Of a stretch of DNA of 64,000 nucleotides, positions 3,711 to 16,148 are shown one piece after another. Position 1 is the stretch's first letter; the number at the start of each line of letters is the position of its first letter. The DNA comes from Escherichia phage phita32. The position numbers were made by a program, and so were the translations under genes. Below the pieces are notes generated by a model. The model was not told the DNA's origin and made no database searches. It worked only from the letters and a program-made list of their open reading frames with translations. The stretch is taken from the sequence record PQ758395; one strand, 5' to 3'.

Positions 3711-4475
3711 TTGAAATTTATCTACAAAGAACACTACCACAAAGGTGTTGTGTGGAGCCTATTTGACGGGTCTGGTGGTGCAGTCATTGACTGGGCAAAA
3801 GCTGGGTACCTGTGCCTGTGCTTTAATGCAGAAGGTGCTGATCACGGCAGTTATGCAGAGGTGATAACCGATCATCACAACATTCACTATGTGGATTATT
3901 GGATTGATCCATGGTTCCCTCAGGAAACTTTTTGCATGTATCCAGCTCCAGACTTTATTCTTGCATTTCCTCCGTGCACGCATTTAGCGGTATCAGGTGC
4001 TGCACATTTTAAGAAAAAACTGGCTAAGGACCCCATGATCCAAATTAATGCTGTAAAGGATGCTCGGGTTGCGGAAGAGCTGGGAGAGATTTACGATTGC
4101 CCGTGGCATGTAGAGAATCCTGTGGGTGTTATGTCCACACTGTGGCGTAAACCTGATTACCGTTTTCATCCTTCTGACTATGGTGGGTATTTACCGGAGG
4201 ATGATGTAAACCCTTGGTTTCCTGAATTTATAGCTCCACGTGATGCCTATCCAAAAATAACTTGCGGCTGGATAGGTAATGGATTTATAATCCCGCCCAC
4301 AAAACCTGTCCCGCAAATAGTTGACGCGGTTAGCGGGTATTCCATGCAACACGCCAAGCTGGGTGGAAAGAGTGCAAGAACGAAGATGATTCGAAGTCTC
4401 ACACCACGTGGCTGGGCAAAAGCCGTATTCTTAGCAAACGAGCCTGTAGTAAGGAGCAGAATTAATGGGAAGTAA
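3711..4475 (+). CDS. putative DNA cytosine-5 methyltransferase-like protein
   Basis: Track ORF starts GTG 3681 inside the terminator; TTG 3711 has AGGAGA SD 7 nt upstream. Motifs resemble C5-MTase I (LFDGSGG), IV (FPPCTHLAVSG) and VI (HVENPVG); short for the family and PCT rather than PCQ. Confidence 0.35.
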   Translation: MKFIYKEHYHKGVVWSLFDGSGGAVIDWAKAGYLCLCFNAEGADHGSYAEVITDHHNIHYVDYWIDPWFPQETFCMYPAPDFILAFPPCTHLAVSGAAHFKKKLAKDPMIQINAVKDARVAEELGEIYDCPWHVENPVGVMSTLWRKPDYRFHPSDYGGYLPEDDVNPWFPEFIAPRDAYPKITCGWIGNGFIIPPTKPVPQIVDAVSGYSMQHAKLGGKSARTKMIRSLTPRGWAKAVFLANEPVVRSRINGK

Positions 4476-6543
4476 ATTTATGGCATCTGCATACAACCGT
4501 TTCGGTGAGCCAAACCCGAAAGCAACTAAGTATAAAAGTGGGGGAAGTGTGAAACGAGACTATCGTGATGAAAAAGAAGTTGAAACTGTAGAGACTGTTT
4601 TAGAAAATACTAAAATTGTCCCTGTCCCACAACAAAATATCGGTCTGATGGCTGCACAATATTTTGGTGTGCGATCAGCATTGTCCCAAGAAGACGGTGT
4701 GACAGTCACTGCAACATATTTCCCATATTACGACCGCTACGGAAATCTGTCTGGTTTCAAAAAGCGTGACTGGACTATTCCTAAAGAGCAAAGGGGCCAT
4801 TTCTCCGTTGTTGGCATCGTAAAGGCCAACTCCCAGATGTTTGGTCAAAAGCTGTGTGCATCTTCCAACAACCGTAAGCAGATTAACGTTTGTGAGGGAG
4901 AAGGTGATGTTATTGCAGCATGGCAGGCTGCATATCAGATACAAGTAAAAGGGATTCTCACCAACGCTAAAGCCCCGGCAAAGGTGAAGCAGTGGGCTAA
5001 AGAGGTCCAGGACGGGATCGACGCAGTTATCAACGGTGGTGATCTGGCAGGAAAACCATGCCTACCTTTTGTTGGAATTAACTGTGGATGTGCAAACGCA
5101 GTAGATACTTTTGCAAACAATGAGAAGTTTATCCGTAGCTATGGAACAGTTGTGCTGGCAATGGATAATGATGCAGCTAACGAGGTAGAGAAGCAAAAAC
5201 ACGTCATTAAAGGTGTTGAGGCCACGCATAATATCGCAGCATTTTTGATGGCTGATAACGTTTACCACGTAGAATACCCTGGTGAAGTAAATGACCCTGA
5301 CGGTGTAAAAGATATCCGAGACATGCTGAAGGCTAAAAAGCTGGAAGATATTGTCAACATGTTCCGGCACCCTGTTAAATATGTGCCTGATGCTGTGTCG
5401 GATTTAGAAGACTTCTCTATCGAGTCTTTGCGGAAAAAGACTTCCAACGGGGTAGATATCAGCGCAGAGTTCCCAAAACTGCAAAAAATGCTAAAAGGCT
5501 TGCACAAAGGGACACTCGTAATGCTTACAGGCCCGTCAGGTGGCGGTAAAACAACTGTAGCTAAAAAACTGGAACACTGTATTGCAAGATACCTAATGGA
5601 CCCGACATGTCCGAAGGCCGATGACTACGAAGAGGATGATCGTCTATGCATGATCCATCTTGAGGAGGACCCAGAGGAAGCAATTAACTCCTTGTATGCA
5701 AACCAGTTAGGGTTTGATGTTAAAGAGTTTGTTGAAGATCCTAGCCAGTTTTTAACTGATCAAGAACACGCAGAGATTCACCAATCATGGGCAAAAGCTG
5801 GAAAAATCAAAGTGTTCAAACATTTCGGATCTATTCCGGTGGACGAGTTGATTACTAAGCTTAAGCAAATGGTTTGCCTGTACCATTGTCGTTATATTGT
5901 ACTGGATCACCTGTCCATGGTAATTTCAGGGCTTAATGTTAAGGATGAGCGAAAAGAACTGGACATGGCTATGACCCAACTGGCTGCGTTTTGTAAGCAG
6001 TTTAACGTGTTTATCTTGGTGATCGCTCACCTCAAGCGTATAGAGATTGTGCCTCCTAAGGACAAGGATGGTAACCCGTTACCTTTCTGGTATCCTGTGC
6101 GAAAAGAGAATTTGCGAGGATCGGCTGGGCTTGAACAGTTGAGTTGGGTAGTCATAGGTGTCGAGGCCGAAGAAATGGTGGATCGTTCTCGTGGACGTGT
6201 CCGTCTGGTAGGTCTTAAAAACCGTCCAGCAAAAACTTTAGGTATTGCTGACACTTTAGTTATGGACCCTCACACAGGCAAGTTCCATGATGCCAGCAAT
6301 TGGTACTGGGACAAAGAAATGCAGATGTTTACAGACGGAGAAGGTGGGGAGGTTGTTTGGAGACCTCAGGCTATGTTTGAGGATCAGGAGCATACAGTTG
6401 TAGAAACACCTATGGGTAAGGTTGTGGCTGATAAGGTTGTAACTCCTACTGTTAAGCCTGTTGACACGCAGGAAGACCTCCAGTACGATGATCCATCCTC
6501 TGACCCTGTCCCTGGTTTTGAGGACGATGAAACGCCTTTTTAA
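4465..6543 (+). CDS. bifunctional DNA primase/helicase (Toprim + DnaB-like RecA-fold ATPase, T7 gp4-like)
   Basis: Toprim-like VCEGEGDVIAAW and LAMDNDAANE acidic motifs; Walker A LTGPSGGGKTT; Walker B YIVLDHLSM; AAGGAG SD. Confidence 0.8.
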   Translation: MGSKFMASAYNRFGEPNPKATKYKSGGSVKRDYRDEKEVETVETVLENTKIVPVPQQNIGLMAAQYFGVRSALSQEDGVTVTATYFPYYDRYGNLSGFKKRDWTIPKEQRGHFSVVGIVKANSQMFGQKLCASSNNRKQINVCEGEGDVIAAWQAAYQIQVKGILTNAKAPAKVKQWAKEVQDGIDAVINGGDLAGKPCLPFVGINCGCANAVDTFANNEKFIRSYGTVVLAMDNDAANEVEKQKHVIKGVEATHNIAAFLMADNVYHVEYPGEVNDPDGVKDIRDMLKAKKLEDIVNMFRHPVKYVPDAVSDLEDFSIESLRKKTSNGVDISAEFPKLQKMLKGLHKGTLVMLTGPSGGGKTTVAKKLEHCIARYLMDPTCPKADDYEEDDRLCMIHLEEDPEEAINSLYANQLGFDVKEFVEDPSQFLTDQEHAEIHQSWAKAGKIKVFKHFGSIPVDELITKLKQMVCLYHCRYIVLDHLSMVISGLNVKDERKELDMAMTQLAAFCKQFNVFILVIAHLKRIEIVPPKDKDGNPLPFWYPVRKENLRGSAGLEQLSWVVIGVEAEEMVDRSRGRVRLVGLKNRPAKTLGIADTLVMDPHTGKFHDASNWYWDKEMQMFTDGEGGEVVWRPQAMFEDQEHTVVETPMGKVVADKVVTPTVKPVDTQEDLQYDDPSSDPVPGFEDDETPF

Positions 6544-6601: not shown

Positions 6602-9025
6602 ATGAGTATGTGGTCTTTCGATCTGGAGGCCTCCGGGCTTTTGGAAGATCTAGATCTTTATTATCACTGCGGTCTGTTTAAAGAGCTGAATAAGAACCGT
6701 TTTATGCTGTTCCTTCCTCTAAATGACCGCACACACTACTCCAAGGAGGATATAGAGAAGGCCAAGAACTTTATTCTGGCAAAGAAAACTCTTTATAAAG
6801 ATTTTGAAGTCCGCATAGCAGATTTTTCGGAGTTGGAAGGTTGGCTTACAGGCAATTCCGACTGGTCACCAACAGCTTTGAACTGCCATAACTGCTACAG
6901 TTATGACTTTATGCTGATGGAGAGATTATCCGGTATTCATTTTGATATGTTCCGTGATCCTAAATGCATGGGGACTATCAACGACCACCAGGTTAATCTG
7001 TTTGATACGTTGGCGATGAGCCGAATCTTGTGGCCTGATCGCCCTTTACCAAAAGGTTGTCCGGACTCTGTATTCAACCCGGTTACTAAGAAAATGCAGC
7101 CTGTTGGTCCTCACGGCCTTATGGCATGGGGCTACGCCCTTGGTAACCAGAAAGTTCAAATTGATGACTGGCGCGATCTTCCGTTGTGGAAGTATGTGGA
7201 TCGTGTATTCGAGGACGTTATCATCCAGGAGCTGCTCTGGAAAGAGCTGGTAGCGGAATCAAAAGGTGTATTCTACGGCAAATCTGACATGCAGAACTTT
7301 ATGTATGATCCTGCCAAAGAGAAGCCGAAAGGGTTCAAGAAGATCACCTGGAAGAACGCATTACGTCGAGGCATGCTGCAGCACTTCCTGATGGAGCTGC
7401 AGGCCCGTCAGGGTGTATACTTCGACATAGATGGAGCTATTGCTTTACGTGACCGTTGCGATGCGTGGATGAAAGAAATCGCTGATCGTGTTGAACCACA
7501 ACTACCTTTAAAAGAGCTGTCAATGTCTCAGCGGCCCAAGTTCCCTGAAAAGCCGTTTAACCAAGACGGGACAATCTCTAATAATGGTTGGAAATGGTTA
7601 AAAGATAAGCTTGGCTATCCTGTAGACATGAGCGCTTTAGAGTTCAAAGCCCCGCCTAAGCGAGCATTTACCTCTACAGGGGATGTCAGCAAGATGGGGA
7701 TAAAATGGTGTGAAGAGATGGGCTGCAAAGACCCCGATAAGATGGCTGATTTCTTGAGAGGCTATATTAAGGGTACCTCCACACCACAACCTTTACCTAA
7801 AGAGCTAATGGATCAGGCAATAAGTGATCTGCAGCAGAAGCGAATGCCTGACTGCAAGATACCTATGAAAATCGGCAATCAGGACGACATCAAGCGATAC
7901 CTAATCAGTGCTGGTTGGCTCCCAACAATGTGGAGAACTAAAGATGTAACTAAAGACAGCAAGAAGAAAGCTTTACCTGATGCAGATGTTGATGCACGAG
8001 TATATGCATACATGGACGAGCTTTTAGAGTCAGAGTATTGTGACCTGATTATCAACTTCTGGAACAAAACTGATGCTAAGTTTCAGACAACCGTGCACAA
8101 GTTCCGAAGCTTTCCTAACTCCGAAAGGATTAAAAAGGAAGTGTTCGGGAAAATACGTAGAAAAGCCAGGGCACTTATTACTTCTCCGCAACTGAAAGAT
8201 ACGTTTGGACACCTATGCCCAAATCTTGAAAAATTGAACGGAGAGATGGCTAAAGATATCGTCTTGTGGTTATCATTGCGAAACCGCAGATCGGTCCTTG
8301 ATCCAATCAAGGAGGATAAGGTTGATACTGGTCTTCTTAATCACCCACGTTTGAAGATTGACCATAAGCTTCCTGCTAAAAGCTCTGGATTAACAAACAC
8401 TTCCAGACAGAAACACAGTATTTGTGCAAACATGCCTAAACCATCTCCTAAAGTGGTTATGGGTAAAGAGATGCGTAGTCTGTGGGGTGTTCCTCCAGGA
8501 TACTTTGAGATCGGTATTGACGGGTCCAACTTAGAGCAGCTTATCGGGGCTTGGGGTGCCTTTGAGTTCGACAACGGCTTGTATTATGATGTTGTAAGTA
8601 ACGGAGACGCACACCAAAACAATGCTGAGGCATATACAAAAGTAGCAGGCAGAGAGGTGTCCCGTAACGACGGTAAACCTATCACGTATGGGGTTATGTA
8701 CGGGGCACAAAAAGATAAAGTTGCAGATATGCTGGACATCTCTCCAGAGTTGGGACAAAGGGTAATCGATGCACTCTGGGATGCCAACCCAGGTCTTAAG
8801 GGGCGCAAAGAGGATCTGGAGAAATTCTGGGAAGCAACAGGTAAGAAGTTTATCTACTCTTTTGATGGTCATGCTATCTGGACCAGATCTAAACACTCTT
8901 TACTTAATGCATACCAACAAAATGGCGGTGCATCGTTGTGTGACTTAGTTGGAATACTCATGCACCACCAGATGGTGAAGCGTGGGTGGTACGATGAAGG
9001 TGTTCGTCGTATTATTTATTACCAT
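6602..9025 (+). CDS. DNA polymerase, family A, exon 1 (3'-5' exo + palm motifs A and B)
   Basis: N-terminal FDLEASG Exo I-like motif; motif A YFEIGIDGSNLEQL; motif B RNDGKPITYGVMYGAQ; ORF runs 2 codons into intron before stop at 9031. Confidence 0.8.
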
Positions 9026-9301
9026 AAATAACATTGTGGCTTCATAGAGTAATCTATGTCGAATAACCTCTTTAACTGCGGGAAGCCTAAACCTTATGGC
9101 AAGGTAATCCGCAACGAAGCGCTCAAAAGAGCGAACGCTCAGAGGCCATTCCGAAAGGAAGTAGACCAGCAAGTGCGGTCGAAATGGGAGGATTCCTGTG
9201 GTTGCTTATTATAGGAATATGAGATGGTCCGATCCTACGTGAAAACGTATGGCTATGCACGTAATGGTGCGGGGTAGCTTAACGACCTACCTGAACTATT
9301 G
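9026..9301 (+). ncRNA. group I self-splicing intron (no ORF) in DNA polymerase gene
   Basis: Exon 1 ends in U (..UACCAU) pairing with intron GUGG guide at 9037-9040; intron ends in G 9301; P/Q/R/S-like core elements AACTGCGGGAAGC 9074-9086, TAATCCGCAACG 9105-9116, GCTCAGAGGCC 9137-9147, GAGATGGTCCGATCC 9221-9235; splicing restores motif C YHDEYQLQV. Confidence 0.6.
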
Positions 9302-12814: not shown

Positions 12815-13060
12815 ATGACTGAAGTAGTTGCTCGCGCAGGACAGAAAGTACGTTGTGTTGAAGTAGGTTTTGGTGGCAAAGGGTGTCAAAACTTGACTCA
12901 AGGTAAGGAATACGCTGTTATTTCTGGTGGTGGCGACGAAAGTATTGTGTTCGAGGGCCACATCCTGGATGCTGAAAACTTTGAAATCTTTGACGACGAT
13001 GGGGATCCGATCACCTGCCTGCTGGACGGGAATTGGGGAACTTTTGAAGTGATTGGCTAA
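12815..13060 (+). CDS. hypothetical protein
   Basis: ORF with AGGAGA SD. Confidence 0.45.
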   Translation: MTEVVARAGQKVRCVEVGFGGKGCQNLTQGKEYAVISGGGDESIVFEGHILDAENFEIFDDDGDPITCLLDGNWGTFEVIG

Positions 13061-13143
13061 CAAATATCTATTGTAATTTGCAGAAGGGGATGCTAAAATA
13101 GTGTCTCCTTCTATGTTGTTCAAATAAAATCGGAGATTCCATA

Positions 13144-13509
13144 ATGGAACAAATGAACGATCAAGCGTCGGTTGCGATGAACGAGCAAGAACAACCTCAA
13201 GAATTTTTCTTAGGGTTAAGTAAAGATCAAGTGTCTCTTTTGCTAGTGCTTTCTTCTTTCATGGGAAGACTTCAAGAGCTCACACAACAACCGGAGGCTG
13301 AACAATTATTTCAGGCTCTGCGTGAAGAAGAAAAATATCGTCGTTTGGACTATGCCTTAGGTTGGGTAGCTCAACAACGGGATATGCTGATGGCCCTCTC
13401 TGGGACCACAAGTTTTGCAATGGGCCTGTTGGCTCAAGTTCAGGACAAATTAATTCAAGCAGGGTTCGCACACACGGCAAGCACTAACGAAGAACAAGGA
13501 GACAAATAA
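13144..13509 (+). CDS. hypothetical protein
   Basis: ORF with SD; Gln/Glu-rich. Confidence 0.45.
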   Translation: MEQMNDQASVAMNEQEQPQEFFLGLSKDQVSLLLVLSSFMGRLQELTQQPEAEQLFQALREEEKYRRLDYALGWVAQQRDMLMALSGTTSFAMGLLAQVQDKLIQAGFAHTASTNEEQGDK

Positions 13510-14780
13510 TGAGCGTTATTCAACAATTCGCTAACCCAATGAATCCGCGTGAAACTGTTTTACTGGCTCACGGCATGATTAAACGTGTTAGCATCAAGCC
13601 TATCAAAGGTGCTGATCCTACAACAGGTATTAAAACCACTGTGTGGCAAGGTAAGAAAATTGAATCCAGCCACACCATCTCTTTACTGATTTCTGAACTG
13701 GATTCCTCTGATAACCTGCTTCAAGGTGGTGAAGAAGTCTGGATCAGCATGGGTGATAAGCTGCTTAAACCAGGTCATCAAGACTCTGTCTCTGTTAAGA
13801 TTGATGACAAGTGGGAAACCGTAACGCCAGGATGGATCGTAAATATCCCTTTGAAGGCAAACGAGCATAACGGTAAGACCTATTACAAGGGCTCACTGGC
13901 TAAGATGGTTAAGCTGGGTGCAGGAGAGGCTCCAGCAGCGACTCAGCAGCAAAAACAGCAACAAGGTGCACAATCACAAGGCCAGAAGCAGAAACCTCAG
14001 CAGAATGCCAATCAGGACGTTTTACGCATCTATGGTGATGTGACTCAGATTGTTGGCAACGTGGTTACTGTTAATGACCACAAGATTGGCGAAGGTGCTA
14101 TGGTTGTCACTGATGAGCAGCTTAAAGATCTGGTGGTAGGTGGTCGTGTTGCAGCCATTGTTGACAAAGACACCGGAAACATTATCAGTGGTTTCAAAGC
14201 CTATCCTCCTAAGGCAGAGAACGGCACTCAAGGCTCCGGTGGCAAGCGTAAATCCTCTTACGACCCTATCGGTGTGGAAACGGGGCATAGCATCAATGCG
14301 TTGCAGATCATCCTGGATCGCGGGTTTAAGGTAGACGACCCACTGGGCGTGGCTAAAACACTGCACGTAGTCACCATTGAGCTTAAGAAAGAGTATGCTC
14401 AAGCCACCAACCGAACTGAAGATGAAGTAGGTGCCAGTGTCGGTAATGCGGTGTTGAACGCTTGTCGCCGTATTGACAAGAAAACGAAAGTTGATGATTT
14501 TGCAGCGGCAATTACTGCAGAAGCAAAAGATGTCTTGACTAATCTGGCTGAGCCGTTGTACGATTGGATCAAGAACGGTGCTGGGTCAACTGACCATCAA
14601 GAACCTCAGGCTGCCAAACAGGAAGCAGCTCCACAGCAAAACACTGTAGACGCTCCTCCTGTAAATGATGAGGAAGATGACCCAATGGATCAGAATCCGG
14701 CGCAGTATGACTTCTGTGATGACATACCTTTCGCTCCGGTAGGTTTGCAATATGGCAAAAGTAGAATCCACGCATTGTAA
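13509..14780 (+). CDS. hypothetical protein with Gln-rich linker and SSB-like acidic DDIPF tip (possible ssDNA-binding/replication accessory protein)
   Basis: [20 protein letters not shown] low-complexity linker; acidic [22 protein letters not shown] near C-terminus resembling the E. coli SSB tip; ORF reads 18 aa past DDIPF into the next gene. Confidence 0.4.
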
Positions 14781-15375
14781 GAGGTGCATCAAGTGCGGGG
14801 AGGTGAAAGACCTCTCCGAGTTCTACAAACACCAAAAGATGTCTGACGGTCATCTTAATAAGTGCAAAGAGTGTTGCAAGAAGGCCAGTAGGGAGGCTGA
14901 CCAATTTTCCTACGACTCTTCAGAAAAAGGTGTAATACGCGTGCTGTACAAGGCTCAAAAGTGCAACAGCAAGCAAAGAGGTCACCCGCCTCCGACTTAC
15001 ACCAAAAAAGAGTTTAAGGAGTGGCTATACCTAAACGGTTACAAAGAGTTGTATGATCAATGGGTAGCCAGCGGATACGACAAAAGGAAAAAGCCTTCTT
15101 GTGACAGGATAGATGATTTCAAAGGGTACTCTTTTGATAATATCCGTTTAACGACTTGGGGAGAAAATAAAGACAAGCAGACAGAGGATATTCTGTTGCA
15201 TAGAAGCACCAGCGGTAGACGGTGTAAAAATGTAAGGAGGCTGGACATGAATGGCAACGTTCTTAAAGAATGGGTATCCCACAATTCTTGTAGAAGAGAA
15301 ACCGGAATATGTGTTGATTACTACATTCATGAAAAAATTCCAGCCCCGGATGGATACCTCTATGAATACTTTTAG
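14752..15375 (+). CDS. putative zinc-finger / HNH-like homing endonuclease
   Basis: N-terminal [26 protein letters not shown] zinc-finger pattern common in phage homing endonucleases; [22 protein letters not shown] resembles a degenerate HNH_3 motif. Confidence 0.4.
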
Positions 15376-15390
15376 CACCTAACTAACATA

Positions 15391-15419
15391 GCCCTGCCCG
15401 AAAGGGTGGGGCATTTTTG
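15391..15419 (+). terminator. rho-independent terminator (duplicate of 3666 element)
   Basis: Identical GCCCTGCCCGAAAGGGTGGGGC hairpin followed by ATTTTTGT. Confidence 0.7.
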
Positions 15420-15437
15420 TATAAGGAGATCTGAAAA

Positions 15438-15653
15438 ATGACATTAGAAGATATCATTGTTAAACCTGAGAACTATGACCAATACAACCTGTCAACTCAA
15501 TCTGTAGGCCTCGGATGCGCCACAGTCAGTGCATGGCTGGTTAACGGAAAAGAGCTTGACGAGTGCCTGGAAGCACACATGTCGGTGAATAAATTTCTTG
15601 ATGAAAATACCCACTGGCTGGAGGGTGCAGGAGTATATGCTTCATGGTTGTAG
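15438..15653 (+). CDS. hypothetical protein
   Basis: ORF with AAGGAGA SD. Confidence 0.4.
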   Translation: MTLEDIIVKPENYDQYNLSTQSVGLGCATVSAWLVNGKELDECLEAHMSVNKFLDENTHWLEGAGVYASWL

Positions 15654-15656
15654 AGT

Positions 15657-15854
15657 ATGGGATTCGACTACCAATCTGAAGAGGGGTGGTGGAGCTATTT
15701 AGCTATCTGCCCAGAGACGCTGCAATGCTTCATGAAATATTCTGAAGATTTGGAGTACCGGGCGGTGGTTGATAGTGCTATTGCCCGTTATAGCCGTAAA
15801 CCTTTTTCCCACGACATTAAAACTGTGGAAGAGTTTGTTGAAGTTTTCTGTTGA
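15657..15854 (+). CDS. hypothetical protein
   Basis: ORF immediately downstream, weak SD. Confidence 0.35.
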   Translation: MGFDYQSEEGWWSYLAICPETLQCFMKYSEDLEYRAVVDSAIARYSRKPFSHDIKTVEEFVEVFC

Positions 15855-15950
15855 CACAGGTTGAAAGGTGTGCAATTATAACTTCATAGAACGGGAGGAC
15901 GTGATGAACGAAGAAAACTGGGATGTATAACTAACAGGAGGCCACTGCCC

Positions 15951-16148
15951 ATGATTTATCGAATCCGTGTAAGAGAAGATGTACCAGGCTGTTACTTTGA
16001 CTGGCGTGGGTGGTGGTTTCTCCACCCGATGGATGGACTCACAGATAGAATGCTGGATGCTGCCCTTTATACAGATACCGACATAGAATATAATCTCTAC
16101 CTGAAGGACGGTATAGATAACGGTCTATTTGAAGCAATTCCTGTGTAA
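15951..16148 (+). CDS. hypothetical protein
   Basis: ORF with AGGAGG SD; TTGACA at 15851 upstream. Confidence 0.4.
   Translation: MIYRIRVREDVPGCYFDWRGWWFLHPMDGLTDRMLDAALYTDTDIEYNLYLKDGIDNGLFEAIPV

What the first reader, a model, noticed from the sequence alone, without database searches (positions are those of the whole stretch)
14695..14790. SSB-type DDIPF tip is internal and reads through into an endonuclease gene
The 423-aa protein has a Gln-rich linker and the acidic segment [22 protein letters not shown], matching the DDDIPF tip that E. coli SSB uses to recruit partner proteins. Here the tip is followed by 18 more residues ([15 protein letters not shown]), and the ATG of the downstream HNH-like gene (14752) lies inside that extension. 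This looks like an endonuclease gene insertion that removed the original stop and buried the tip.
Basis: inference. Interest (0 to 1): 0.4.

Follow-up and report, generated by a model that had tools for sequence, protein, structure and literature searches.

The report
Capped SSB tail beside homing endonuclease
In this rV5-type coliphage the SSB-like replication protein's DDIPF tip is followed by 15 more residues, and these are a conserved, apparently undescribed "cap" found on many phage replication proteins, here carried next to a mobile endonuclease gene whose close relatives always sit behind genes ending in such tips.

Summary
ORF 13509..14780 (423 aa) has DDIPF at residues 404-408, followed by [15 protein letters not shown]. 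That is 15 residues, not 18. The ATG of the next gene (14752) lies inside this extension.

About half of near-identical vequintaviruses lack the endonuclease gene and stop directly after DDIPF. So in this genus the extension and the endonuclease gene do form one roughly 640-bp insertion.

The extension is not read-through junk. Homologous caps (AP[IV]GLQY plus about 8 residues) end the orthologues of PVP-SE1 and Justusliebigvirus, which have no endonuclease neighbour. They also end canonical PF00436 SSBs, DUF669 proteins, several other families, and the primase/helicase of sister genera. Synonymous sites vary freely, so selection acts on the peptide.

The endonuclease is a PacI-like HNH homing endonuclease. 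Homologues of at least 47% identity lie directly 3' of tip-encoding gene ends in 6 of 6 IMG/VR loci. So did 7 of 8 further homologues (48-56% identity; the exception is 40%).

Best reading: a homing endonuclease (HEG) clade that targets tip-encoding DNA, here carrying a functional cap module with it. What the cap does is unknown. I found no paper describing it.

The parts
13509..14780 (+). SSB-like replication protein gene (423 aa, phrog_4477). Domains: OB-fold barrel (res 1-140), Q-rich disordered linker (142-168), small beta-barrel (171-232), four-helix domain (253-356), disordered acidic tail (360-423).
14718..14732 (+). Codons for D-D-I-P-F (residues 404-408): an SSB-type acidic/hydrophobic tip, internal in this genome.
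   Evidence: Sequence. P407 and F408 are invariant in 39 homologues. The tip is terminal in at least 57 empty-site and at least 18 class-b relatives.
14733..14780 (+). Cap: 15 codons for [15 protein letters not shown] plus the TAA stop. This is a member of the conserved AP[IV]GLQY-x4-hydrophobic-[HY]-x-hydrophobic tail module.
   Evidence: Homologous caps are seen. Synonymous variation across 40 distinct coding versions is shown. In Seunavirus the cap is a clean 45-nt presence/absence difference with no HEG nearby.
14752..15375 (+). Free-standing homing endonuclease gene (207 aa). It has an N-terminal Cys4 zinc ribbon (C12, C15, C38, C41), a PacI-like HNH core (PSCDRIDD...Y126...N139) and a C-terminal NUMOD-like region.
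   Evidence: phrog_1035 'endonuclease VII' at 7.2e-41. No Pfam family at E<0.1. AF2 pLDDT 92.5. Best PDB match is the PacI HNH nuclease, 3ldy_A, E 6.8e-3, prob 1.0, with weak phmmer support. Invariant residues. Some homologues carry precomputed Pfam hits PF22083, PF27269 and PF07453 (NUMOD1; named). Patchy distribution.
14752..14780 (+). 29-nt overlap in which the HEG start (frame +1) is embedded in the cap. The ATG lies in the Q-Y-G codons, and the SSB stop TAA lies inside the HEG's TGT AAG (Cys9-Lys10) codons.
   Evidence: Sequence. The same -29 architecture is found in temperate coliphage mEp554 and in IMG/VR locus L041, both with unrelated SSB bodies. A TAA-within-TGT-AAx overlap also occurs in L043.
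14724..14732 (+). Left edge of the cassette: ATACCTTTC, the first copy of an imperfect 9-nt direct repeat.
   Evidence: Alignment of the window with the empty-site and class-b genomes, and sequence.
15366..15374 (+). Right edge of the cassette: ATACTTTTA, the second copy of the repeat. The HEG stop codon (15373..15375) occupies the position of the SSB gene's stop codon in empty-site genomes.
   Evidence: Downstream of this point all classes are collinear (TAACATAGCCC...).
15391..15418 (+). Intrinsic-terminator-like hairpin plus T-run, shared by all junction classes. In empty-site genomes it directly follows the SSB stop, so the cassette sits between the coding end and the terminator and is probably co-transcribed with the SSB-like gene.
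   Evidence: stem 15391..15412 with 9 pairs, then ATTTTTG; only a weak 9-of-12 promoter-like match, 14535..14564, lies upstream of the HEG start, inside the SSB gene; the count of such matches is no higher than in shuffles. Alignment.

Best explanation
The region is the junction between two modules. One is a capped SSB-type tail and the other is a tip-associated homing endonuclease gene.

(1) Shown. The 423-aa protein is the phage's OB-fold, SSB-like replication protein with a disordered acidic tail ending in DDIPF.

(2) Shown. The 15 residues after DDIPF belong to a discrete, widely distributed cap module under peptide-level selection. It is found on at least 8 unrelated phage replication and recombination protein families, including canonical SSBs and, in sister genera, the primase/helicase. 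It can be present or absent as a clean 15-codon block.

(3) Shown. The downstream gene belongs to a clade of PacI-like HNH homing endonucleases that is found directly 3' of genes whose products end in an acidic-[IV]PF tip, whatever the gene family.

(4) Inferred. This clade homes on the DNA that encodes the tip, a sequence kept similar in many genes by protein constraint. Repair of the cut copies the donor's flanking DNA along with the HEG. In this window the donor-type cassette runs from the first base after the Phe codon to the former stop codon. It includes the cap because the HEG's own start and first Cys-Lys codons are interleaved with the cap's last nine codons and stop. Acquisition therefore converts a free tip into a capped tip. 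A sister cassette (class b) instead carries a recoded free tip (...DDSIPF*), a 9-nt spacer and a HEG with a different zinc-ribbon N-terminus.

(5) Inferred, low confidence. The cap removes the free alpha-carboxylate that the SSB-binding pockets of host partners are thought to contact, and it adds a second, hydrophobic C-terminus. It thereby re-targets or masks the tail. Primase/helicase and SSB-like protein carry the same tail type, as T7 gp4 and gp2.5 do, so a shared replisome partner such as the phage DNA polymerase is the leading candidate.
For: Identity of phage and gene: 98.7% to rV5; phrog_4477; OB fold.

Cap is a conserved module:
- The family C-termini are dimorphic at every divergence level.
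- 38 IMG/VR loci encode DIPFAP[IV]GLQY, many of them canonical SSBs.
- The mEp554 SSB matches PF00436 at 7e-24.
- Other carrier families are phrog_44, phrog_9002/DUF669, phrog_2544, phrog_32668, phrog_3284 and phrog_1138.
- 159 of 50,697 phage records cover at least 80% of a 27-aa capped tail.
- Third codon positions vary freely.
- Capped primase/helicases occur in KE23 and VLCpiM5b.
- A clean 45-nt indel without a HEG separates KE23 from PVP-SE1.

HEG is mobile: at least 57 empty sites, at least 26 class a and at least 18 class b among about 115 near-identical genomes. Boundaries are precise. L045 retains a HEG remnant.

HEG is tied to tips:
- Of 8 homologues looked up without knowledge of their context, 7 lie 24-77 nt behind a gene ending in [DE]..[IV]PF. 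The carriers include PF00436 SSBs, a DUF669-like protein and an SF2 helicase.
- In IMG/VR the association holds in 6 of 6 loci at 47% identity or more, 1 of 16 at 40-46% and 3 of 49 below 40%.
- The E. coli temperate mEp021-group phages reproduce both junction types on an unrelated SSB.
- The HEG start lies inside the cap at -29, -20 or -11 in the window, mEp554, L041, KE23, L043 and L032.

Nuclease fold.

Against: - No cleavage, homing or binding has been measured. The target site is inferred from position only.
- The HEG lacks the canonical HNH histidine (DRID) and has no Pfam hit. Activity is therefore assumed from the PacI-like fold and the patchy distribution.
- Direction of change in Vequintavirus is unresolved. 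The 76%-identity clade (L043) has cap plus HEG at about the same divergence as the rest of the gene. The capped, HEG-bearing state could therefore be old, with the free-tip alleles derived.
- Cap-coding DNA is only 73-79% identical between the window and the mEp/L026 phages, so no recent transfer is demonstrated.
- Cap and HEG occur independently in all four combinations, so the cap does not depend on the HEG.
- Near-isogenic phages live with a capped, a free or a recoded tip, so the cap may be nearly neutral in this genus.
- The proposed function of the cap rests on analogy only.
Confidence: 0.62

Rival explanations
1. A HEG landed in the last codons of the gene and destroyed the stop. The 15 extra residues are meaningless read-through that buries, and probably cripples, the tip.
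For: Empty-site relatives stop right after DDIPF. Next to some HEG homologues the tip is followed by short, non-homologous extensions that do look accidental: L060 ...DEIPFNEVQ*, L061 ...DEDIPF plus 25 aa, and L072 ...DEIPFS*.
Against: The window's extension is homologous to caps in orthologues and in unrelated SSBs that have no HEG. It matches L026 in 14 of 15 residues. It is conserved at the amino-acid level with free synonymous change. It is retained after HEG decay in L045.
Confidence: 0.04
2. Same parts, opposite history. The capped tail is the ancestral state of this lineage. The HEG later inserted at the very end of the cap, evolving an overlapping start so as not to damage it. Free-tip vequintaviruses arose by loss of cap plus HEG, through deletion between the ATAC(C)TTT repeats or replacement by a free-tip allele.
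For: Cap plus overlapping HEG is present in the 76%-identity clade, with HEG divergence (74% aa) matching that of the host gene. Caps occur across Vequintavirinae and Stephanstirmvirinae. The cassette is flanked by an imperfect 9-nt repeat. Clean cap indels occur without a HEG.
Against: Free tips are the majority state in Vequintavirus and are also scattered through the family tree. Simple recombination between the two repeats does not regenerate an in-frame stop; this is my own check of the sequence, an inference. No phylogenetic reconciliation was done.
Confidence: 0.25
3. The cap is a pro-peptide or degron. It is clipped by a host or phage protease to expose a normal DDIPF-COOH tip at the right time, or it targets the protein for turnover through its non-polar C-terminus. 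The buried tip would then be only transient.
For: A perfect MDFDDDIPF is maintained upstream of the cap in many carriers, which suggests the tip itself remains useful. Cap C-termini are uniformly hydrophobic (-HAL, -YAL, -NCM, -HCI, -YVI).
Against: No protease site or processing enzyme is known for F|AP. The invariant core AP.GLQY argues for specific recognition rather than a generic degron. Nothing was testable here.
Confidence: 0.09

Closest known systems
E. coli SSB C-terminal tip (SSB-Ct, ...MDFDDDIPF-COOH), the hub that recruits ExoI, RecQ, PriA, chi, DnaG, RecO and others
   Same: A disordered Gln/Pro-rich linker is followed by acidic residues and IPF. Many cap carriers even keep the exact PPMDFDDDIPF. 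Relatives of this protein end exactly at ...IPF.
   Different: Here, and in at least 159 phage records, the motif is not terminal. Another 14-16 conserved residues follow, so the Phe alpha-carboxylate is absent; the binding pockets are thought to contact the aspartates and/or that carboxyl group (PMC3632105). The protein body is not PF00436.
T7 gp2.5 (SSB) and gp4 (primase-helicase) acidic, Phe-terminated C-terminal tails that dock on the T7 DNA polymerase (from my own knowledge)
   Same: Two replisome proteins of one phage group carry the same kind of tail. The window's primase/helicase ends ...FEDDETPF* and its SSB-like protein ends ...CDDIPF plus cap. In KE23 and VLCpiM5b the primase/helicase carries the cap.
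   Different: The tail sequences are unrelated to those of T7. The terminal aromatic residue is capped in some alleles. No polymerase interaction has been shown.
Free-standing homing endonucleases of T4-like phages (Seg and Mob families), which home between conserved genes and co-convert flanking markers (from my own knowledge)
   Same: Patchy presence among near-identical genomes, precise insertion between a conserved coding end and its terminator, and donor-specific sequence changes next to the insertion (class b recodes the last 8 codons).
   Different: The clade appears to follow a short protein-motif-encoding sequence across unrelated genes (SSBs, DUF669, helicases) rather than one gene. 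One cassette type changes the host protein's C-terminus by 15 conserved residues.
PacI, a minimal HNH (beta-beta-alpha-metal) restriction endonuclease with zinc-binding motifs
   Same: It is the best structural match of the AF2 model (3ldy_A, E 6.8e-3, prob 1.0, 22% identity over 144 columns). The window protein has Cys4 zinc-binding residues and no canonical first histidine.
   Different: The similarity is weak (TM 0.31-0.44). The window protein has an additional C-terminal NUMOD-like region and a HEG-like genomic distribution.
Phage HK620 SSB, whose last six residues (NDYPPF) are needed to stimulate its cognate annealase Sak4 (PMC5928155)
   Same: It shows that phage SSB tails can serve phage-encoded partners rather than host ones.
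   Different: The HK620 tail is terminal and has no cap.

Membership tests
Bacterial-type SSB (Pfam PF00436) | Sequence match to the SSB OB-domain profile | tested here: not met
   No Pfam family at E<=0.1. By contrast the mEp554 capped SSB scores 7.3e-24.
Bacterial-type SSB (Pfam PF00436) | OB-fold ssDNA-binding domain | tested here: inconclusive
Bacterial-type SSB (Pfam PF00436) | Disordered linker followed by an acidic tail | tested here: met
   Residues 142-168 and 360-423 have pLDDT<50. The sequence is ...[23 protein letters not shown].
Bacterial-type SSB (Pfam PF00436) | Binds ssDNA | not testable with these tools
   This needs EMSA or fluorescence titration with purified protein.
SSB-Ct tip motif | Acidic residues followed by [IV]PF | tested here: met
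   CDDIPF at residues 403-408. P407 and F408 are invariant in 39 homologues.
SSB-Ct tip motif | Phe is the last residue (free alpha-carboxylate) | tested here: not met
   Fifteen residues follow in this window. The feature is met in at least 57 empty-site and at least 18 class-b relatives.
Capped tip module (defined here) | [IV]PF followed by AP[IV]GLQY, then about 8 residues ending hydrophobic-[HYN]-small-hydrophobic, then stop | tested here: met
   [15 protein letters not shown]. In the tail alignment G, L, Q and Y are invariant and A and P nearly invariant. Wider variants replace QY with PY, PF, QE or MY.
Free-standing homing endonuclease | Sporadic presence among otherwise near-identical genomes, with conserved flanks | tested here: met
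   Searches give the counts. One search gives the boundaries. One search shows a decayed copy in L045.
Free-standing homing endonuclease | Nuclease domain of a HEG class (HNH / beta-beta-alpha-Me) | tested here: inconclusive
   PacI-like by Foldseek (E 6.8e-3) and weakly by phmmer (E 0.16). phrog_1035. No Pfam hit. The canonical His is replaced (DRID), with invariant R119, Y126 and N139.
Free-standing homing endonuclease | Consistent genomic target position across homologues | tested here: met
   Found behind tip-encoding gene ends in 7 of 8 blind look-ups and in 6 of 6 IMG/VR loci at 47% identity or more.
Free-standing homing endonuclease | Cleaves the HEG-less allele and is over-transmitted in crosses | not testable with these tools
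   This needs an in-vitro cleavage assay and mixed infections.
T4 endonuclease VII (as annotated in GenBank and PHROGs) | Match to the Endonuclease_7 profile / Holliday-junction resolvase | tested here: not met
   No Pfam Endonuclease_7 hit at E<=1. The 'endonuclease VII' label comes only from phrog_1035 and record annotations.

The most novel reading that the evidence does not exclude
The cap is a switchable, functional module that masks or re-targets the universal SSB tip. A dedicated homing-endonuclease clade recognises tip-encoding DNA in any replication gene and flips tails between free, recoded and capped states across unrelated phages. Mobile DNA would thus be driving allelic switching of a replisome interaction motif, possibly under selection from host factors or defence systems that read SSB tips.
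Probability: 0.2. Interest if true: 0.8.

Novelty: new variant of a known kind. Interest (0 to 1): 0.6.

Why it matters
The SSB C-terminal tip is one of the best-studied protein-interaction motifs in bacterial DNA metabolism, and its position at the extreme C-terminus is regarded as part of how it works.

A conserved 14-16-residue cap sits on a perfect tip in hundreds of phage genomes and on at least 8 protein families. This means that either a second, unknown recognition mode exists or that phages deliberately mask the tip. Both possibilities can be tested directly with peptides.

The cap is polymorphic between near-isogenic coliphages, including members of the BASEL collection. Natural matched pairs for phenotyping therefore already exist.

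The HEG clade is a possible example of a homing endonuclease that follows a short, protein-constrained motif across unrelated genes. It also explains why the 3' ends of phage SSB genes are hot spots of mosaicism.

For annotation, 'endonuclease VII' is a misnomer for this gene, and the 423-aa 'hypothetical protein' can be called a putative SSB.

Tried and rejected
- The search for related loci with the full-family alignment failed because no stretch was conserved enough. I replaced it with a degenerate DNA pattern for DIPFAP[IV]GLQY.
The 45-aa profile search returned only short fragments, apparently a length bias in candidate collection. It was useful only for revealing the ...GLPYPRHAIYVI and ...TLPFPRHAIHAI variants.
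- The representative-library search gives only a lower bound, because capped and uncapped SSBs share 50% clusters.
- I tested whether the HEG's 3' end carries a duplicated copy of the SSB gene's 3' end. The local alignment score was reached by 61 of 2000 random windows (p about 0.03), which is not convincing. Only the 9-nt repeat and the stop position are retained.
- I considered recent transfer of the cap between mEp-type phages and rV5. Identity is only 73-79% over 48 nt, so the sequences are homologous but the transfer is not recent.
- I considered the cap as a beta-clamp-binding motif (QL[SD]LF type) and rejected it. The Gln is not conserved in the PRHAI, QE and MY variants, and the spacing does not fit.
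- I considered an ssrA-like ClpX degron. Only some caps end in -YAL(A), and this could not be tested.
- My first automated scan of genes upstream of HEG homologues picked wrong frames. I corrected it after reading L070 and L071.
- Literature string searches for the cap, and searches for HEG plus SSB tail and for rV5 endonuclease, found nothing relevant.
Full report
**What is at the coordinates**

The window is an rV5-type Vequintavirus, 98.7% identical to Escherichia phage V5 over 13000..16000. ORF 13509..14780 (+) encodes 423 aa ending ...DFCDDIPF(408)[15 protein letters not shown]. The extension is 15 residues, not 18. The next ORF (14752..15375, 207 aa) starts at an ATG inside the Q-Y-G codons of the extension, in the +1 frame, and overlaps by 29 nt. 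The SSB stop TAA lies within the TGT AAG (Cys-Lys) codons of the downstream gene.

**Is the 423-aa protein an SSB?**

- It has no Pfam hit.
- It belongs to phrog_4477, whose profile ends exactly at residue 408.
- An AF2 model built on 39 homologues has five parts: a beta-barrel (1-140), a disordered Q-rich linker (142-168), a small barrel (171-232), a four-helix domain (253-356) and a disordered tail (360-423).

An SSB-like protein is therefore a reasonable call by fold and architecture. It is not a PF00436 member, and ssDNA binding is untested.

**Close relatives**

About 115 phage records match at 90-99% identity. Three junction states exist.

| State | Tail and downstream arrangement | Example | Records |
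|---|---|---|---|
| Empty site | ...DDIPF*, then directly the shared terminator | AlexBoehm | at least 57 |
| Class a | As in the window: cap plus overlapping endonuclease gene | rV5 | at least 26 |
| Class b | ...YEFDDSIPF*, 9 nt, then an endonuclease gene whose first ~100 nt differ but whose body is ~97% identical | bov25_3 | at least 18 |

Alignment shows that heterology starts right after the Phe codon and ends at the position of the original stop codon. The cassette is flanked by ATACCTTTC (14724..14732) and ATACTTTTA (15366..15374). It sits upstream of a terminator-like hairpin at 15391..15418; the only promoter-like match upstream of the HEG start is a weak 9-of-12 one inside the SSB gene (14535..14564).

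**The extension is not junk**

Distant orthologues without any endonuclease neighbour carry a homologous extension:

- PVP-SE1 gp038 ends ...DFDDDIPFAPIGLQYGRNFIHCI* and is followed by a terminator.
- Justusliebigvirus BME3 'SSB' ends ...APIGLQYGRNFLHCF*.

Among 72 homologues the C-terminus is dimorphic at every level of divergence. It is either ...[IV]PF* or ...[IV]PF plus AP[IV]GLQY plus about 8 residues.

A degenerate DNA pattern for DIPFAP[IV]GLQY found 38 IMG/VR loci. Many are canonical SSBs (MASRGVNKVILVG...) and several belong to other families. The same pattern found only 8 species-representative bacterial genomes, seven of them Gammaproteobacteria.

Across 40 distinct coding versions the third codon positions vary freely while the peptide stays fixed. 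Selection is therefore on the protein.

Profile searches revealed wider variants...GLPYPRHAIYVI...TLPFPRHAIHAI...GLQEGRLFLHMI and ...GLMYDNNFIHCI. They also revealed carriers in phrog_44, phrog_9002/DUF669, phrog_2544, phrog_32668, phrog_3284 and phrog_1138.

A 27-aa capped tail hits 602 of 50,697 phage records, and 159 of these cover at least 80% of it.

The cap also ends the primase/helicase of Seunavirus KE23 (...DDDTPFAPIGLQYANHAIYVL*) and of Mydovirus VLCpiM5b. The window's own primase/helicase (4465..6543) ends in a free ...FEDDETPF*.

Within Seunavirus the SSB-like gene is capped in PVP-SE1 and NINP13076 and uncapped in KE23. The difference is a clean 45-nt indel between the Phe codon and the stop, with no endonuclease gene nearby.

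I found no paper containing the motif strings.

**The endonuclease**

- It matches phrog_1035 ('endonuclease VII', 7e-41) but no Pfam family.
- An AF2 model on 37 homologues is confident (pLDDT 92.5).
- Its best PDB match is the minimal HNH nuclease PacI (E 6.8e-3, prob 1.0). This agrees with a weak phmmer hit.
- Invariant residues are a Cys4 ribbon plus P115, S116, R119, Y126 and N139. The canonical HNH histidine is absent (DRID).
- Some homologues carry precomputed Pfam hits PF22083, PF27269 and PF07453 (NUMOD1).

**The endonuclease clade follows tips**

I took homologues without knowing their context. In 7 of 8 contigs the gene 24-77 nt upstream ends in an acidic-[IV]PF tip. The upstream genes include PF00436 SSBs, a phrog_44-type SSB, a DUF669-like protein, another small ssDNA-binding-like family and an SF2 helicase. 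The single exception is the most distant homologue, at 40% identity.

In IMG/VR the association depends on relatedness:

| Identity to the window HEG | Loci with a tip-encoding gene end upstream |
|---|---|
| 47% or more | 6 of 6 |
| 40-46% | 1 of 16 |
| below 40% | 3 of 49 |

E. coli temperate mEp021-group phages have an unrelated, canonical SSB yet repeat both junction types.

- mEp554 ends ...DDDIPFSCVGLQYGKHRIYAL*, with an HNH gene starting at the same -29 position ([16 protein letters not shown]...).
- mEp021 ends ...DQDIPF*, followed by about 30 nt and a HEG with another ribbon N-terminus.
- mEp013 and L026 keep the cap without a HEG; their downstream ORF retains HEG-like first codons (shown for L026).

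HEG starts lie inside caps at -29, -20 or -11 in unrelated phages. Different nuclease bodies (PacI-like here, classical HH...H in mEp554, L041, L032, L039 and KE23) share the N-terminal ribbon.

**Interpretation**

Shown:
- A discrete cap module that is under selection.
- A mobile endonuclease clade positioned at tip-encoding gene ends.
- All four combinations of cap and HEG.
- In this genome, a cassette that carries both.

Inferred:
- The clade homes on tip-encoding DNA.
- Gene conversion from a capped donor turned a free tip into a capped one, or the reverse history, which I rate at 0.25.

What the cap does is not known. [quoted passage not shown] SSB-like protein and primase/helicase share this tail type, which recalls T7 gp2.5 and gp4 (my own knowledge) and points to a shared replisome partner. 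That is analogy only. Near-isogenic phages live with each tail state, so the cap is not essential in this background.

**Verdict**

- The cap is a new variant of the SSB tail.
- The HEG clade is a new member of a known kind with an unusual, motif-following distribution.

Noticed in passing
window 4465..6543 (+), last codons 6520..6540: The phage's primase/helicase (692 aa) ends in a second SSB-type tip, ...PVPGFEDDETPF*, uncapped. In sister genera the orthologue ends ...DDDTPFAPIGLQYANHAIYVL* (KE23, with an HNH HEG starting inside the cap) or ...AKHAIYVI* (VLCpiM5b, no HEG). The DNA polymerase gene follows at 6602..9031.
   Followed up: partly
window 15438..15653 and 15657..15854 (+): The gene after the cassette is split into 71-aa and 65-aa ORFs by a stop codon (...GVYASWL* / MGFDYQ...). 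AlexBoehm (L001 2790..3206) and L045 have one 138-aa ORF (...ASWLESMGFDYQ...).
   Followed up: partly
L060 1413..1925; L061 141..1976; L072: Next to other members of the HEG clade, tips are followed by short non-homologous extensions: ...DEIPFNEVQ*, ...DEDIPF plus 25 aa on an SF2 helicase, and ...DEIPFS*.
   Followed up: no
L002 2700..2800 (bov25_3) and at least 18 records: The class-b junction has its last 8 codons recoded (YEFDDSIPF versus YDFCDDIPF, many substitutions). The HEG has a shorter, different zinc-ribbon N-terminus but an almost identical body. This looks like a chimeric HEG with a co-converted or immunising tip sequence. The DDSIPF and DESIPF tips in other homologues may mark the same cassette.
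   Followed up: partly
phage records MG0656xx: Sixteen to twenty GenBank records named 'Campylobacter phage', with host Campylobacter jejuni, are 95-99% identical to E. coli rV5-like phages across this region. The host labels look doubtful.
   Followed up: no
L026 / L030 and mEp013-type phages, just after the SSB stop: Where the HEG is absent, the downstream abc2-like ORF begins with HEG-like codons (MEKAESTHY / MAKAGSTRY) that overlap the cap. This looks like a scar of HEG loss that has been recruited as a start.
   Followed up: partly
L131 / L132 (IMG/VR): A distant HEG relative lies about 250 nt after an ORF ending in an SSB OB-domain sequence (...KWDKDGVTQYKTIIKAEKIELLS*) without linker or tip. 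The SSB gene may be truncated or interrupted.
   Followed up: no
L062-L064, first bases after the tip stop codon: Three independent HEG-bearing loci share ...ATACC[CG]TTC TAA AATGG..., and promoter-like TTGAC[AG] boxes lie in the spacer before the HEG. This may be a conserved left end of another cassette type.
   Followed up: no
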